In this document: one piece after another, positions 1-38,925 of the stretch
How the letters are laid out: every line of letters starts with the position of its first letter
How positions within the stretch are numbered: the stretch's first letter is position 1
Source of the DNA: a virus
Taxonomy: Duplodnaviria; Caudoviricetes
Direction: 5' to 3' (one strand)
Length of the DNA stretch: 38,925 nucleotides
IMG/VR virus record: IMGVR_UViG_3300042988_000558
Span: 1-38,925 of that record
Program-made: the position numbers and the translations under genes
The notes under the pieces: generated by a model
Databases searched by the model: none
What the model was told of the DNA's origin: nothing
Seen by the model: only the letters and a program-made list of their open reading frames with translations

Positions 1-127
1 AAAGACCCTGAGACCGGCGCCCGGCGCTACGTCGACCGGCCGCGCCATGAGTGGCAGGTGCGCGATGCGCCCGAGCTGCGCATCGTCGACGAGGCCACCT
101 GGCGCGCGGTGCGCGAGCGCCAGCGCA
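1..127. repeat. Terminal direct repeat, copy 1 (assembly overlap indicating a circular contig)
   Basis: 1-127 is identical to 38799-38925, and the integrase frame is continuous across the join. Confidence 0.97.
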
Positions 128-852
128 GCGGCCCGGCCCGCGGCACACGCACTGGCGCCGGTGCCCCGCTGCGCACCCTGTTCGCCGGCGTGCTGCGCTG
201 CCCCGCCTGCGCCGGCCCGATGACGGCCATCGACGCGCGGCGCTACGGCTGCAACGTGCACCACGACCGCGGCGCCAGCGTCTGCGGCAACGCCACGGCC
301 TACCAGCGCCGGGCGGTCGACCAGGCGCTGCTGACGGTGGTGCGAGACGAGCTGCTCAGCCCGGCGGCCATGGCGGATCTGCACCGCGCCGTGCGCGAGG
401 CGCTGGCCAGTGCGCAGCGTGGCGGCAGGAAGGCCAAGCCGGCACGTCAGGAAGCCCTGCAGGCCGAGATCGCGCGCCTGGTCGATGCGGTGGCCCAGGT
501 TGGCCTGTCCGGTGCTCTGCAGGCCCGCCTGGCGGAGGCAGAGGCCGAGCTTGAGGCGCTGCGCCAGGCCGCGCCGCCGGTGGCTGCACCGGCGCCCACC
601 GCCGCGCAGATCATGGCGGCCTACCGGCGCCAGATGCTGCAGCTCAGGGACGCGCTGGAGAGCGACGCCGATCGGGACCGCACCCGCGCGCTGCTGGCCG
701 GGCTGCTCGGGCCGGTGCAGCTGGTGCGCGACGCTGCAGGAGCGTGGGCAGAAATGGAAGAGCCCGCCGCGCGTCTTGCGCTGGCGGGCTCGCCTGTGGG
801 AGTGGTTGCGGGGGCGTGCAATGGCTACCGGAGGCGGGTGCGGATCAAGTGA
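1..852 (+). CDS. int: Large serine recombinase/integrase, C-terminal part (zinc ribbon and coiled coil); continues from 38052, 532 aa in total
   Basis: LFAGVLRCPACAGPM...YGC...C zinc ribbon followed by a coiled coil; in frame with the resolvase domain starting at 38052. Confidence 0.95.
   Translation, partial: KDPETGARRYVDRPRHEWQVRDAPELRIVDEATWRAVRERQRSGPARGTRTGAGAPLRTLFAGVLRCPACAGPMTAIDARRYGCNVHHDRGASVCGNATAYQRRAVDQALLTVVRDELLSPAAMADLHRAVREALASAQRGGRKAKPARQEALQAEIARLVDAVAQVGLSGALQARLAEAEAELEALRQAAPPVAAPAPTAAQIMAAYRRQMLQLRDALESDADRDRTRALLAGLLGPVQLVRDAAGAWAEMEEPAARLALAGSPVGVVAGACNGYRRRVRIK
791..836. other. attP: Predicted attP inside the integrase 3' end; core matches the tRNA-fMet 3' end
   Basis: TGGTTGCGGGGGC (803-815) is the reverse complement of GCCCCCGCAACCA; imperfect dyad CGCCT/AGGCG and TTGC/GCAA centred on GG 813-814. 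Confidence 0.75.
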
Positions 853-855
853 TCG

Positions 856-2295
856 TCAATCTCCGGTTTCGCTGAAAAGCTGGTAGTCGAGCACGCCGGC
901 TTGAACGTATCCAGCATACTGTTTACGCCCGCCTGCTGATTTTCCTTCAGGTGGAATATTTTCGTCTGCCCATCCAATTTCAATGGTGGCCACGTTAAGG
1001 CGCAGCGTTTGATCTAAAGTGCGCGCGCGGACTTCAAATGTGCTTAATGGCCTTGGACCAGAATACCCGGTTTCACCGGCAGCTTCAAAAGAAACATAAG
1101 CTGTAGCACCATCAATAAGCGGAAGTGCTGGAAATCTAAATGCCATTTGAGAAGGTCGCATAACTATGATGGTGCATGTGACCTCTTCAACGACCCCAGG
1201 GTATAACTCCCACTCTCTAATAAGAGCTGAATATTCTTCTTCATTTCCACCAGGAAAATCATTAACAAGCTCTATCCAGTCACCTCTATTTTCTCGAACT
1301 TCAAACGTAGCAGAACTGAGCAGTTCATACGAATCTTCTGAAAACGCGGCAAAGAATGGACTTAAGCGGCCTACGCTTATATACCCGCCGCCGATCATCA
1401 TCCAATTGCATGCCCGCGGGTTGTCCAAGAACCCAATTACGCGCGGCGCATTCCAATCTTGTCCTTGGAATTCAACGACGACATTGTCACCAACTTCAAA
1501 TACTGAAGCGTTGCATGTCATATAGACGATCGGGACGTTCGTCAACGTTGACGCCTGATTGACCGACAACCGCTGCGCGCTGGATGTCGACGCGAACAGC
1601 GTCACCGATGCCGTGTCGGCGTCTTCGTCCAGTGCCGTGATCGTGCCCCACCGATATGTCGGCTTGAACTTCTGCCAGCCCGGCAGGATCGCAGCGTTGA
1701 AGTACGCCTGCCATGGCGCCATCAGGTTTCGTGACAGGAAAGCACCGTCTGTGCTTAGCACTGGCTGCCGGCCGCCAGGCGCGATCAGCAGCAGATCGGA
1801 CTCTCCGGGGATGTCCAGCGTCGCCACGTACCCGGTGGCGTCTTCCGTGAAGTCCGTGCACCAGGCGTCGCGCGTCTCGGTCAAGACTTGGGCCTGCCAC
1901 CCTGCAAGCGCCTTGTCGATGGTCGTCTTGGCGTGAGAGAGCATGTTGCGATTTGCCAGCGCGGCAGAGTGGTCAGCCTTGGCTCGGATGTACGCGGCCT
2001 GCGCTTGGTTGTAGCGGTCGACGATCGCTATGAACTCTTCTTCGTCTTCTGGCTCAATCTCCCCGCGCTGCAACGCGATGTAGGCGTCCGTCGCTTCGTT
2101 GTACTCCGTGGTTGCCTCGTTCAGCGTGACCGTCTTTGCATCAAGCTCAGCCTGCGCAACGGTAAGCCGCTCTTGCGCTGCCGAGGCTTGCTGTGTGAAG
2201 CGCGTCACCAGCGCGTCGCGCATCGCTTCGCCGATGTCCAGCGAGATGGTGTAGCGACCGTCCGTGCCGCCGCCGACGATCAGCGCGTAGCCCAT
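856..2295 (-). CDS. Tail-tip/spike-like protein: coiled coil, gp5/gpV-type OB-fold-like segment and low-GC C-terminal domain
   Basis: 479 aa, last gene of the tail operon; motif GDNVVVEFQGQDWNAPRVIGF; 3' part is AT-rich. Confidence 0.6.
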   Translation of the reverse strand: MGYALIVGGGTDGRYTISLDIGEAMRDALVTRFTQQASAAQERLTVAQAELDAKTVTLNEATTEYNEATDAYIALQRGEIEPEDEEEFIAIVDRYNQAQAAYIRAKADHSAALANRNMLSHAKTTIDKALAGWQAQVLTETRDAWCTDFTEDATGYVATLDIPGESDLLLIAPGGRQPVLSTDGAFLSRNLMAPWQAYFNAAILPGWQKFKPTYRWGTITALDEDADTASVTLFASTSSAQRLSVNQASTLTNVPIVYMTCNASVFEVGDNVVVEFQGQDWNAPRVIGFLDNPRACNWMMIGGGYISVGRLSPFFAAFSEDSYELLSSATFEVRENRGDWIELVNDFPGGNEEEYSALIREWELYPGVVEEVTCTIIVMRPSQMAFRFPALPLIDGATAYVSFEAAGETGYSGPRPLSTFEVRARTLDQTLRLNVATIEIGWADENIPPEGKSAGGRKQYAGYVQAGVLDYQLFSETGD

Positions 2296-29335: not shown

Positions 29336-29550
29336 CACGCGGCCTCGCGCAGGATGGCCGCTGTGTTCGTCTCTTTCTTCAATGACTTCTGCAAGTCGCG
29401 CAGCGTGGAAAATCCAGGATTCGGGATGTGCCCGTTGACGAACTTGCTGATCCACGAATAGCTGACGTTCGACACGTCGGCGATGCGCTTCCACTCGCCC
29501 TTGCGATCCATCAGCAGGCTGCGCACTTCAGCATCAAGGTCTTCGCTCAT
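29335..29550 (-). CDS. cro: Cro-like HTH repressor
   Basis: 71 aa, WKRIADVSNVSYSWISKFVNGHIPNPGFSTL; divergent from the repressor. Confidence 0.8.
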   Translation of the reverse strand: MSEDLDAEVRSLLMDRKGEWKRIADVSNVSYSWISKFVNGHIPNPGFSTLRDLQKSLKKETNTAAILREAA

Positions 29551-29557
29551 GCAGCAC

Positions 29558-29600
29558 ACGATAGCAAACTCTTGCTATTTGAGCAAGCAGCACTTTGCTA
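29558..29600 (-). promoter_or_regulatory. Early promoter towards cro with two operators
   Basis: TTGCTC-N17-TATCGT on the minus strand; operators TAGCAAACTCTTGCTA (29562-29577) and AAGCAGCACTTTGCTA (29585-29600). Confidence 0.8.
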
Positions 29601-29623
29601 AGGCATCGTCCGACCATGAGGGC

Positions 29624-29935
29624 ATGCCGAAAATCCCCATCGTCGAGGTGTTCGCCGCCTGCCTTCGGCATCACATGACAGACCGCGGAGTCACCCAGGC
29701 CGAACTGGCCAAGCGTTCCGGCATCGGACAGACGACGATCAGCCTGTACCTGCGACCCAAGGCCCGAGGCGATACCGCATCTGGAAAAACCGGCTCGCCG
29801 ACGCTTTCAAACGTGGAAGCGCTGGCCGACGCCCTGGGCGTCGAGGTGTGGGAAATGCTGCGCGTGGTGACGCCGGCCGAGCGCGAGCTGCTGCGCGCCG
29901 TGGCCCGGATGTCGAAGAACACCGACCACCACTGA
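29624..29935 (+). CDS. cI: CI-like XRE HTH immunity repressor (no peptidase domain)
   Basis: 103 aa, RGVTQAELAKRSGIGQTTISLYL...SPTLSNVEALADALGV; flanked by operator pairs. Confidence 0.85.
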   Translation: MPKIPIVEVFAACLRHHMTDRGVTQAELAKRSGIGQTTISLYLRPKARGDTASGKTGSPTLSNVEALADALGVEVWEMLRVVTPAERELLRAVARMSKNTDHH

Positions 29936-30335: not shown

Positions 30336-30532
<197 letters not shown>

Positions 30533-30538
30533 AGCGCG

Positions 30539-36243: not shown

Positions 36244-36732
36244 ATGACCACCACCCGCATCTATGCCGTCTCGCTGACGGCCATCACGGACGAACCCGGC
36301 GTTGTCTCGCGCCTGGTGCGCGCCGGCAATGCTTCGCAGGCGCTGCGCCATGTGGCGCGCGACACGCTCACCGTGAAGGTGGCCAGCCAGGACGACCTAG
36401 TGGCCAACCTCAGCGCTGGCGTCAAGGTCGAGACGGCCGGCGATGAAGCTGAGCCGGCGCCGGCGCCGACCGAAGAGAAGTCGCTGCCGCTGTGGCCCAT
36501 GCCTGGCCAGCAGGCCCAGTCGCCAGATGAAGACGGCGATGACGAAGAGGCTGCACCTGCTTCCATCCGGCCGCCCAAGCGTCTGCCCGCGAAGTACCGC
36601 GACGAACTGACCGGCAGCACCTGGTCGGGCCGCGGCCTCATGCCGACCTGGCTGAAGGTGGCGCTGAGCAACGATCCCGGCCGCAAGCTGGACGACTTCC
36701 TGGTCAAGGAAGAAGCGCCGCAGCAGGCCTGA
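36244..36732 (+). CDS. Protein with C-terminal H-NS-type DNA-binding domain
   Basis: PAKYRDELTGSTWSGRGLMPTWL...LDDFLV; N-terminus unrelated to H-NS; acidic linker. Confidence 0.85.
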   Translation: MTTTRIYAVSLTAITDEPGVVSRLVRAGNASQALRHVARDTLTVKVASQDDLVANLSAGVKVETAGDEAEPAPAPTEEKSLPLWPMPGQQAQSPDEDGDDEEAAPASIRPPKRLPAKYRDELTGSTWSGRGLMPTWLKVALSNDPGRKLDDFLVKEEAPQQA

Positions 36733-37683: not shown

Positions 37684-37959
37684 ATGGGATCGTGCACAGA
37701 CCCTATCGGCACTGACATGCCTCGATCTTGGTCTGTCGCGTCTGAATTGCTCGAATGGCACTCCGTAGCCAACGGTCTGCCCAACGCCGACATGACCGTC
37801 TTGATGTGGGTGGAGGACGGGCGCGAGCGCGATTGGGCCAGCGGCTGGTGGGACGGCGAAGCCTGGCGCGCATGCAACTCTGGCGGCGTGGTGGCCGGTA
37901 CGGTGACGCATTGGGCCGATCCTGCGGGGCCGTGCCATCATGACCCCGCCCACTCCTGA
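37684..37959 (+). CDS. DUF551-like hypothetical protein
   Basis: WHSVANGLPNADMTVLMW...VTHWADP pattern; start uncertain. Confidence 0.6.
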   Translation: MGSCTDPIGTDMPRSWSVASELLEWHSVANGLPNADMTVLMWVEDGRERDWASGWWDGEAWRACNSGGVVAGTVTHWADPAGPCHHDPAHS

Positions 37960-38116
37960 CGCCCGCGACGCGGCCCGCCAGCATCTGGTGCGGCTGCTGG
38001 TCGAGCGCATCATGCGCGAGGCCGCCACCATTGCCCAGAGAGAACCCGCCGATGCCACGCGCAGCCCTGTACGCCCGCTACAGCACCGACCAGCAGCGGC
38101 AGACCAGCCTGGCTGA
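37940..38116 (+). CDS. Small ORF overlapping the integrase start
   Basis: 58 aa, MTPPTPDARDAARQHLVRLLVERIMREAA..., translated by hand. Confidence 0.45.
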   Translation: MTPPTPDARDAARQHLVRLLVERIMREAATIAQREPADATRSPVRPLQHRPAAADQPG

Positions 38117-38925
38117 CCAGCTGCGCGCGGCACGGGAACGCGCGGCGCGCGAAGGCTGGCATATCGTGGCCGAGCATGCCGACGACGCCGTCAGCGGCAG
38201 CGTGCCGGTCGCCCTGCGCGCCGGCGGCAAGGCGCTGCTGGCCGACGCCTTGGCCGGTCGCTTCGACGTGCTGCTGGTCGAGGGCCTGGACCGCCTGAGC
38301 CGCGAGATCGGCGAGGCCGAGACGATCACCAAACGGCTGGAGCATCGCGGCATTCGCATCGTCGGCACCGCCGACGGCTACGACAGCCAGGCGCAAGGCA
38401 GAAAGGTCATGCGCATCGCCCGCGGCCTGGTCAATGAGCTATACCTCGACGACCTGCGCGAGAAGACCCACCGCGGCCTGGCCGGCCAGTTCGACCGGGG
38501 CTACCACGTCGGTGGCGTCTGCTACGGCTACCGCAGCCGGCCCAGCGACGACGGCCGGGGCCGCCAGCTCGAGGTCGACCAGGCGCAGGCCGACGTGGTG
38601 CGGCGCATTTTCGCCGACTTCGCCGCCGGCCACAGCGCCCGCGGCATCGCGCACCGGTTGAACACCGAAGGCGTACTCAGCCCGCGCGGCGGCACCTGGG
38701 CCGTGTCGGCGCTGGTGGGCGACACCAAGCGCGGCGCCGGCGTGCTCAACAGCGAGATCTACGCCGGCCGGCTGGTGTGGAACCGCCGCCAGTGGCTGAA
38801 AGACCCTGAGACCGGCGCCCGGCGCTACGTCGACCGGCCGCGCCATGAGTGGCAGGTGCGCGATGCGCCCGAGCTGCGCATCGTCGACGAGGCCACCTGG
38901 CGCGCGGTGCGCGAGCGCCAGCGCA
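38052..38925 (+). CDS. int: Large serine recombinase/integrase, N-terminal resolvase and recombinase domains (continues at position 1)
   Basis: MPRAALYARYSTDQQ catalytic Ser; DDAVSG; FDVLLVEGLDRLSRE; GGVCYGY; RGIAHRLNTEG; missing from the ORF track because it crosses the window end. Confidence 0.95.
   Translation, partial: MPRAALYARYSTDQQRQTSLADQLRAARERAAREGWHIVAEHADDAVSGSVPVALRAGGKALLADALAGRFDVLLVEGLDRLSREIGEAETITKRLEHRGIRIVGTADGYDSQAQGRKVMRIARGLVNELYLDDLREKTHRGLAGQFDRGYHVGGVCYGYRSRPSDDGRGRQLEVDQAQADVVRRIFADFAAGHSARGIAHRLNTEGVLSPRGGTWAVSALVGDTKRGAGVLNSEIYAGRLVWNRRQWLKDPETGARRYVDRPRHEWQVRDAPELRIVDEATWRAVRERQR
38799..38925. repeat. Terminal direct repeat, copy 2
   Basis: Identical to 1-127. 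Confidence 0.97.

What the first reader, a model, noticed from the sequence alone, without database searches (positions are those of the whole stretch)
791..852. attP lies inside the integrase gene, so integration into tRNA-fMet would rewrite the integrase C-terminus
Seen: TGGTTGCGGGGGC at 803-815 sits in an imperfect ~46-bp dyad (CGCCT 791-795/AGGCG 832-836; TTGC 806-809/GCAA 818-821) centred on GG 813-814. Known: this 13-mer is the reverse complement of the proteobacterial initiator tRNA 3' end (GCCCCCGCAACCA), and serine-integrase attP sites are ~50-bp dyads around a central dinucleotide. Inference: crossover at GG restores the tRNA, and the integrase then reads into antisense tRNA. Its end would change from ...VVAGACNGYRRRVRIK (free phage) to about ...VVAGAGFEPATFGL (prophage). 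Two state-specific isoforms could differ in stability or directionality, analogous to attP-in-repressor switches in mycobacteriophages. It also implies this contig is the excised form.
Basis: partly seen in the sequence, partly recalled or inferred. Interest (0 to 1): 0.8.

Follow-up and report, generated by a model that had tools for sequence, protein, structure and literature searches.

The report
Integrase that swaps its own tail
This phage's insertion site lies inside the end of its own integrase gene, so inserting into the host's initiator-tRNA gene would replace the enzyme's conserved last 11 residues with about 9 read off the back of the tRNA, as seen in integrated relatives, which likely acts as a built-in switch between insertion and excision; similar layouts are already known in other phages and islands.

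Summary
Observation confirmed, geometry supported. The window is a circular 38.8-kb temperate phage whose 532-aa large serine integrase crosses the origin and ends at 852. Homologues end either like this one (VVAGA-xN..RRRVRI, 38 of 69) or in antisense initiator tRNA (28 of 69), and both ends are mixed across the tree, so they are states, not lineages. In 19 integrated relatives with both junctions, the shared block narrows to window 804-814, reconstructed attP symmetry peaks at 813/814, and the cut-off tail sits at the far junction. New here: the free tail is under protein-level selection (kept even when the frame shifts), is predicted to be a beta-strand beyond the canonical fold, while the prophage tail is predicted disordered and varies; the last codons also encode, antisense, a conserved hairpin that likely replaces the tRNA terminator; a conserved 58-aa ORF overlapping the start is a directionality-factor candidate. 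Function is untested. attP inside an integrase gene is known (Mx8, SSV, DsiB, rumA ICEs), and this scan noted the same design before on other DNA. New variant of a known kind.

The parts
38052..38925 (+). 5' part of the large serine integrase gene (catalytic Ser11, Resolvase and Recombinase domains); continues across the circular junction
1..852 (+). 3' part of the integrase gene (Zn-ribbon domain with four invariant Cys, coiled coil, C-terminal extension), stop at 850-852
789..838 (.). attP: about 50-bp imperfect dyad inside the integrase coding sequence
803..815 (+). 13-bp identity to the antisense 3' end of tRNA-fMet (tRNA positions 76-64); block shared by all 19 junction pairs of relatives is 804-814
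813..814 (.). inferred crossover dinucleotide GG (tRNA C66/C65, acceptor-stem/T-stem junction)
791..797 (-). distal attP motif, left arm (positions 16-22 from the centre; likely zinc-ribbon-domain binding site)
   Evidence: PMC3783163 passages
830..836 (+). distal attP motif, right arm; its DNA dictates the Arg-rich codons 526-528
817..852 (+). codons 522-532 plus stop: the free-form tail (CNGYRRRVRIK) that integration would cut off; predicted beta-strand 526-530
750..791 (-). antisense hairpin (760-791, 13 pairs) plus U-rich run, 12 nt behind the restored tRNA CCA; likely replacement terminator or processing hairpin encoded within codons for EEPAARLALAGS
37940..38116 (+). conserved 58-aa ORF with an amphipathic-helix pattern, overlapping the integrase start in another frame; candidate recombination directionality factor (untested)
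38799..38925 (.). 127-nt terminal repeat of 1-127: circular assembly

Best explanation
The phage's attP lies in the last codons of its large serine integrase gene, and recombination at GG 813-814 with the 3' end of the host tRNA-fMet gene would restore the tRNA while swapping a conserved, predicted beta-strand tail for a short tRNA-derived one, which likely leaves the prophage with a less integration-prone enzyme that excises together with a separate directionality factor. Shown: attP position, target, the two tail states, the orphan tail at the far junction, the antisense hairpin. Strongly inferred (about 0.95 for the layout, 0.85 for the exact dinucleotide): crossover and tRNA restoration, with the phage arm supplying CCA and a new hairpin in place of the host's. 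Inferred (about 0.75): the free tail matters as protein. Inferred by analogy to Mx8 (about 0.5): losing it changes activity or direction, so the DNA state sets the enzyme's state. The small upstream ORF as the excision factor is a guess from position, size and conservation.
For: Two tail classes among 69 homologues: 25 FE(L/P)xTFGL, 3 GCGGRI, 38 free-type, 3 unclear. 7 of 7 genome loci have tRNA-Met overlapping the integrase end; of 57 distinct loci at 42% identity or more, 37 end in the tRNA, 13 free-type, 7 other. Tail type needs 18 changes on a 66-protein tree built without the tails (shuffled mean 21.4; 11 forced by strong branches). 19 junction pairs, 3-58 kb apart, seven of them 38-58 kb: shared block never fails between tRNA positions 75 and 65, differs at 64 in 6 of 19; reconstructed attP dyad mean 13.1/24 at this centre against 5.4-7.2 at eight neighbouring centres, sole peak in 16 of 19; central dinucleotide GG 16, AG 2, GA 1, always equal at both ends. 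Distal motif at 16-22 in both attP arms, where PMC3783163 places the ZD motif (16-24). Basic-hydrophobic-x-hydrophobic motif in the integrase frame in 21 of 30 tails, 0 and 2 of 30 in the other frames; second-position T in 20 of 25 at both 839 and 845 with variable flanking positions; four of five -1-frame relatives keep an RRIRL/RRVRV tail in their own frame. AlphaFold2: strand 526-530, pLDDT about 69-83, in the free form; residues 510-529 below 50 with no structure in an integrated form. Hairpin z -3.3 here; z below -2 in 46 of 52 relatives, native halves beat swapped halves in 49 of 52; host hairpin displaced in 19 of 19 (lenient shuffle). A wetland-metagenome relative's contig leaves the window at 815 and runs into antisense tRNA. 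Mx8 precedent: prophage form less active (PMC4701971; PMC6070905).
Against: Solved serine integrases mostly align only to about residue 511 (furthest 520), so both isoforms keep a complete canonical fold and the swap could be harmless. Part of the tail's conservation is DNA-driven (832 A and 818 G in 25 of 25). The peptide motif was chosen after seeing the tails, and 9 of 30 tails fail it. The two models are different proteins with different alignments, and the strand's partner was not visible. Identity alone cannot place the cut within 75-65; 3 of 19 pairs lack a sole dyad peak; L004, L010 and L066 are near-copies. 12 of 29 records searched for a far junction gave none (mostly fragments or trimmed proviruses, but G262 is a long contig searched for 60 kb). 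RNAalifold found no consensus hairpin and the terminator scan called none; the U-run here is weak. No experiment on any member.
Confidence: 0.55

Rival explanations
1. Neutral overlap: attP sits in a dispensable C-terminal extension for compactness, both isoforms work alike, and direction is set only by an ordinary directionality factor.
For: Canonical fold ends near 511; SPbeta's last residues were disordered in cryo-EM maps (PMC11722253); Arg-rich codons coincide with the DNA motif; McMurdie et al. found DsiB divergent there; a candidate factor gene is present.
Against: Hydrophobic alternation at 529/531 lies beyond the DNA motif, shows a codon-position pattern and survives a frame shift; predicted strand.
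Confidence: 0.25
2. Stability switch: one tail is a protease tag, so enzyme level rather than specificity changes, as for the BPs repressor and integrase.
For: Prophage tail is predicted disordered and ends in nonpolar FGL; precedent in mycobacteriophage BPs (PMC3694055).
Against: The prophage end is fixed by tRNA sequence and differs wholly between frames (FGL versus GRI); the free end varies in its last residues and is predicted folded, unlike a terminal tag.
Confidence: 0.15
3. This contig is not a free phage but a mis-circularised prophage or a tandem-island junction, where the integrase reads into a neighbour's orphan tail.
For: Tandem arrays at tRNA-Met exist among relatives (G079, L081); PMC3146451 raises that possibility for dsiB.
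Against: 127-nt terminal repeat, no tRNA or host flank seen, one att core, phage head, terminase and repressor genes; a contig from a second study spans 769-929 with no mismatch; a 13-bp core is too short to collapse an assembly with 127-nt overlaps (inference).
Confidence: 0.04

Closest known systems
Myxococcus phage Mx8 IntP (tyrosine integrase)
   Same: attP inside int; integration gives a new C-terminus (112 residues replaced by 13) and a less active or altered enzyme (passages in PMC4701971, PMC6070905, PMC4383910; primary papers not read).
   Different: Tyrosine, not serine, enzyme; far larger swap; experimentally tested.
Dehalococcoides ssrA-island serine integrase DsiB (PMC3146451)
   Same: About 540-aa serine integrase whose 3' end overlaps attL/attP and reads into the antisense of the target RNA gene; authors suggest it may be fully functional only on the circle.
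   Different: Target is tmRNA; islands with a second recombinase DsiA; no conserved tail, hairpin or crossover mapping appeared in the passages I saw.
Streptococcal rumA-targeting ICE serine integrases (PMC4701971)
   Same: att within the serine integrase gene; integration changes C-terminal length and sequence.
   Different: Protein-coding target with reciprocal 3' exchange; ICEs.
Phage large serine integrases (SPbeta SprA, Bxb1, phiC31, LI/A118, TP901-1)
   Same: Domain order, catalytic Ser, four-Cys zinc ribbon, coiled coil, fold; about 50-bp dyad attP with distal motifs.
   Different: Their attP lies outside int and their targets are not tRNA genes (recalled); this enzyme has a 21-residue extension past the shared fold.
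Paracoccus phage vB_PamS_Pami6
   Same: Active phage with a serine recombinase predicted to integrate at tRNA-Met (PMC6536676 passages).
   Different: No att-in-gene overlap mentioned in the passages seen; relationship to this integrase not tested.
SSV-type archaeal integrases; mycobacteriophage BPs repressor switch
   Same: attP inside a gene so that integration changes the product.
   Different: SSV: tyrosine integrase split into two pieces. BPs: the gene is the repressor and the effect is loss of a degradation tag.

Membership tests
Large serine integrase | Resolvase catalytic domain with N-terminal Ser | tested here: met
   PF00239 E 1e-25; S11 nearly invariant
Large serine integrase | Recombinase domain, four-Cys zinc ribbon, coiled coil | tested here: met
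   PF07508, PF13408; C316, C319, C333, C344 invariant; model and fold matches to SPbeta, Bxb1, phiC31
Large serine integrase | About 50-bp dyad attP with distal motifs around a central dinucleotide shared with attB | tested here: met
Large serine integrase | attB carries the distal motif shifted 5 bp inward | tested here: inconclusive
   B' scores -1.0 at position 11 and -0.3 at 14 against +6 in attP arms; B arm has no peak
Large serine integrase | Unidirectional recombination reversed by a directionality factor | not testable with these tools
   candidate ORF only; no family match
attP-in-integrase elements (Mx8, DsiB, rumA ICE type) | att core inside the integrase ORF, different C-terminus in free and integrated states | tested here: met
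attP-in-integrase elements (Mx8, DsiB, rumA ICE type) | The two isoforms differ in activity (shown for Mx8) | not testable with these tools
   indirect only:
SSV-type split integrases | Tyrosine recombinase split into two fragments by integration | tested here: not met
   serine enzyme; only 11 residues past the canonical fold are lost
Integration-dependent immunity switch (BPs) | attP inside the repressor gene | tested here: not met
   repressor-like gene is at 29483-29935, far from attP
tRNA-targeting integrative elements | Target tRNA restored, displaced 3' fragment at the far end | tested here: met
Intrinsic terminator | G+C-rich hairpin followed by a U run that stops transcription | tested here: inconclusive
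   hairpin met; scan called none; U run weak here; no RNA data

The most novel reading that the evidence does not exclude
The free-form tail is a built-in anti-excision strand: it docks on the zinc-ribbon domain where the directionality factor binds, so the enzyme made from the circle integrates even though the factor gene overlaps its start and is made with it, while the tail-less prophage enzyme is free to bind the factor and excise. The same 30 codons serve at once as protein, attP and the tRNA's replacement terminator, across a large family of Proteobacterial phages and islands.
Probability: 0.25. Interest if true: 0.75.

Novelty: new variant of a known kind. Interest (0 to 1): 0.45.

Why it matters
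It offers a simple, testable way for a serine integrase to read its own DNA state, in an enzyme class whose direction control is a central question and a widely used tool. Practically, databases mined from prophages hold the tail-less isoform (28 of 69 here), which may be the wrong one for engineering, and provirus calls often end exactly at that stop. The target, initiator tRNA, is conserved across many Proteobacteria. The principle is not new, so the value lies in the precise mapping, the evidence for selection on the tail and the triple-use sequence.

Tried and rejected
Reads of this phage split at 813-815: only assembled contigs were available; none showed this exact phage joined to a host, which proves nothing. 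No RNA holder listed. RNAalifold on 32 hairpin regions gave no consensus because the arms slide in register; the synonymous-codon control was milder (z below -1.64 in 23 of 51, against 18% of control blocks). Terminator scan negative. Far junction not found in 12 of 29 records. The pattern scan of viral contigs required GCAA, so I did not use it as evidence for that motif; several true arms lack it. The 17 most distant homologues (P0072-P0088) were left out of the tail counts; the tree is the quick version. The small ORF has no Pfam, PHROG or Atlas match, and its binding to the integrase is open. Mageeney et al. 2020 (TIGER) was not held, and may bear on novelty; supplements were not read. Literature searches found no paper describing this tRNA-fMet clade's tail swap or its antisense hairpin, in an open-access library only. 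VarioGold and the Mesorhizobium and Sinorhizobium papers were checked by passages and do not describe it. Durrant preprint passages had no mention of tRNA.

Full report
Context. The window is the whole record, circular by a 127-nt terminal repeat, with terminase, major head, tape-measure, primase, helicase and repressor-like genes and no tRNA: a temperate phage of 38,798 bp. The ORF ending at 852 begins at 38052 and gives 532 aa, identical to P0003, a large serine integrase by Pfam, invariant residues and fold. Named relatives at 55-66% are in Ramlibacter, Pelomonas, Roseateles, Piscinibacter and other Burkholderiales.

Observation. The 13-mer and the dyad are as described; the centre 813/814 scores 15 of 24, top 0.085% of the window, and the 13-mer occurs once. 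Alone this is only suggestive; the relatives decide it.

Two tails. Of 69 homologues (P0003-P0071), 25 end in FE(L/P)xTFGL, 3 in GCGGRI, 38 in a free-type tail like the window's and 3 are unclear. All 7 genome loci have tRNA-Met on the opposite strand over the integrase end. Among 57 distinct loci at 42% identity or more, 30 end in the tRNA in this frame, 7 in the -1 frame, 13 are free-type and 7 are broken or other; 25 of 26 full tRNAs pass an initiator filter and the 26th differs at its called boundary and last base. On a tree built without the tails the label changes 18 times, near the shuffled mean of 21.4: states of one gene, not lineages. More distant members reach other tRNAs (Glu, Ser and another Met type).

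Crossover. I found both junctions for 17 of 29 records searched plus 2 metagenome loci. In these 19 pairs the shared block always spans tRNA positions 75-65 (window 804-814), and position 64 differs in 6. Reconstructed attP symmetry averages 13.1 of 24 at 66/65, 5.4-7.2 at the eight neighbouring centres, and is the sole peak in 16; attB shows none (6.3). The central pair follows the host allele (GG 16, AG 2, GA 1) and matches at both ends. Both attP arms carry a motif 16-22 bases out, where the LI structure places the zinc-ribbon contact (PMC3783163, passages). The far junction carries the cut-off tail, for example ACNVRRKLIRAAS in Ramlibacter humi. Three pairs are near-copies, and three with long shared blocks (G079, G546, G607) could belong to neighbouring islands. 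For this phage, residues 522-532 would be replaced by nine; the closest integrated relative (L063, 77%) has the same 25 bases before the core and ends ARFELATFGL. Contigs from a second study span the intact site without mismatch, and a relative's contig leaves at 815 into antisense tRNA; no junction of this exact phage was seen.

Is the tail doing something? Part of it is DNA-driven: the Arg-rich codons are the distal attP motif. But the hydrophobic positions 529 and 531 lie beyond it, keep T at the second codon position in 20 of 25 arms each while positions 1 and 3 vary, and a basic-hydrophobic-x-hydrophobic motif (chosen after inspection) is in the integrase frame in 21 of 30 arms against 0 and 2. 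In relatives shifted by one base, the free or orphan tail still ends RRIRL or RRVRV in the shifted frame (L072, L107, L108, L009; L190 has QILIRR), while GCAA stays at its DNA position in L072, L009 and L190. AlphaFold2 gives a strand at 526-530 in the free form and disorder over 510-529 in an integrated homologue; solved integrases mostly align only to about 511. So the free tail looks selected, the prophage tail is whatever the tRNA spells, and the switch, if real, is presence or absence of one strand.

Extra layers. On the tRNA-sense strand, 12 nt behind the restored CCA, window 760-791 folds into a 13-pair hairpin (z -3.3) followed by a modest U-rich run. 46 of 52 relatives have z below -2 there despite changed amino acids, and native halves fold better than swapped halves in 49 of 52; the host's own hairpin is displaced in 19 of 19 pairs. 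Alignment-based covariation failed and the terminator scan was negative, so 'replacement terminator' is likely, not shown. A 58-aa ORF (37940-38116) overlapping the integrase start recurs in the 34 loci I picked for alignment out of the 52 printed, with an ARxQLIxLLAxxLV pattern, and a similar frame lies upstream in RR1-A. It has no family match; its size and helix recall the 58-aa SPbeta factor that binds the zinc-ribbon domain (PMC11722253, passages). That is a lead only.

Mechanism. The free genome makes the long form, which recombines attP with tRNA-fMet at 66/65; the phage arm rebuilds the acceptor end and supplies a hairpin; the prophage makes the short form, the only one available for excision, likely with the small protein. 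I put the layout at about 0.95, a protein role of the tail at 0.75 and a regulatory change at 0.5.

What is known. attP within int is established for Mx8 (PMC6070905, PMC4701971, PMC4383910; passages; primary papers not read) and SSV (PMC5861418 passages; PMC7253208 listing), and noted for serine integrases DsiB (PMC3146451, passages) and rumA ICEs (PMC4701971). Islander stated in 2014 that serine integrases were not known to target tRNA genes; a Paracoccus phage at tRNA-Met was later listed (PMC6536676). The BPs switch involves the repressor (PMC3694055). Nine searches found no paper on this clade's swap or hairpin; one relevant paper (TIGER 2020) was not held. Eight earlier notes of this scan describe the same design on other DNA; they gave me the DsiB and Mx8 leads, which I checked, and are not counted as support.

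Verdict. Real, well mapped, widespread; a new variant of a known design with untested function. Interest 0.45; 0.75 if the tail proves to block the directionality factor.

Noticed in passing
window 37940-38116 (+): Conserved unannotated 58-aa ORF overlapping the integrase start by 65 nt; directionality-factor candidate; a similar frame is unannotated in RR1-A and Mae-JY30.
   Followed up: partly
window 30337-30538 (+): Tandem 6-nt repeat (GGCTCC/GGCTAC/GGCGAC), a Gly-Ser/Tyr/Asp-type repeat tract ending at a stop.
   Followed up: no
window 853-1500: G+C drops to 47% (76% in the integrase); it is the 3' part of ORF 856-2295 (-), a 479-aa protein without Pfam or PHROG match, perhaps with a swapped C-terminal domain; its stop abuts the integrase stop.
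   Followed up: no
window 36244-36732 (+): Small protein with an H-NS C-terminal domain (PF00816).
   Followed up: no
L036 about 2400-2480: Two stacked att-like cores in one integrase end that differ at the central dinucleotide (AG and GG).
   Followed up: partly
L004, L007, L010, L066, L070 (6-7.4 kb elements): Small non-phage-sized elements use the same integrase and site; possibly satellites or islands; gene content not examined.
   Followed up: no
L010 4570-4625: The host hairpin behind tRNA-fMet in Pelomonas aquatica closely resembles the integrase-encoded hairpin of L006/L077, hinting that the integrase extension was captured from a host terminator, or is a remnant of an older insertion; no integrase remnant seen in the 400 nt upstream.
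   Followed up: partly
L009 9237-9240; L125, L089: Some phage arms rebuild the tRNA end as CCC or CCG instead of CCA.
   Followed up: no
L207 (Rhizobium phage RR1-A) and L208 (Mae-JY30): Deposited phage genomes with distant integrases that hold a tRNA-3'-end-like core in their last 20 codons; L209 does not.
   Followed up: partly
IMG/VR proviruses L101-L106, L143, L144 and others: Provirus records often end exactly at the tRNA-derived stop codon of the integrase.
   Followed up: no
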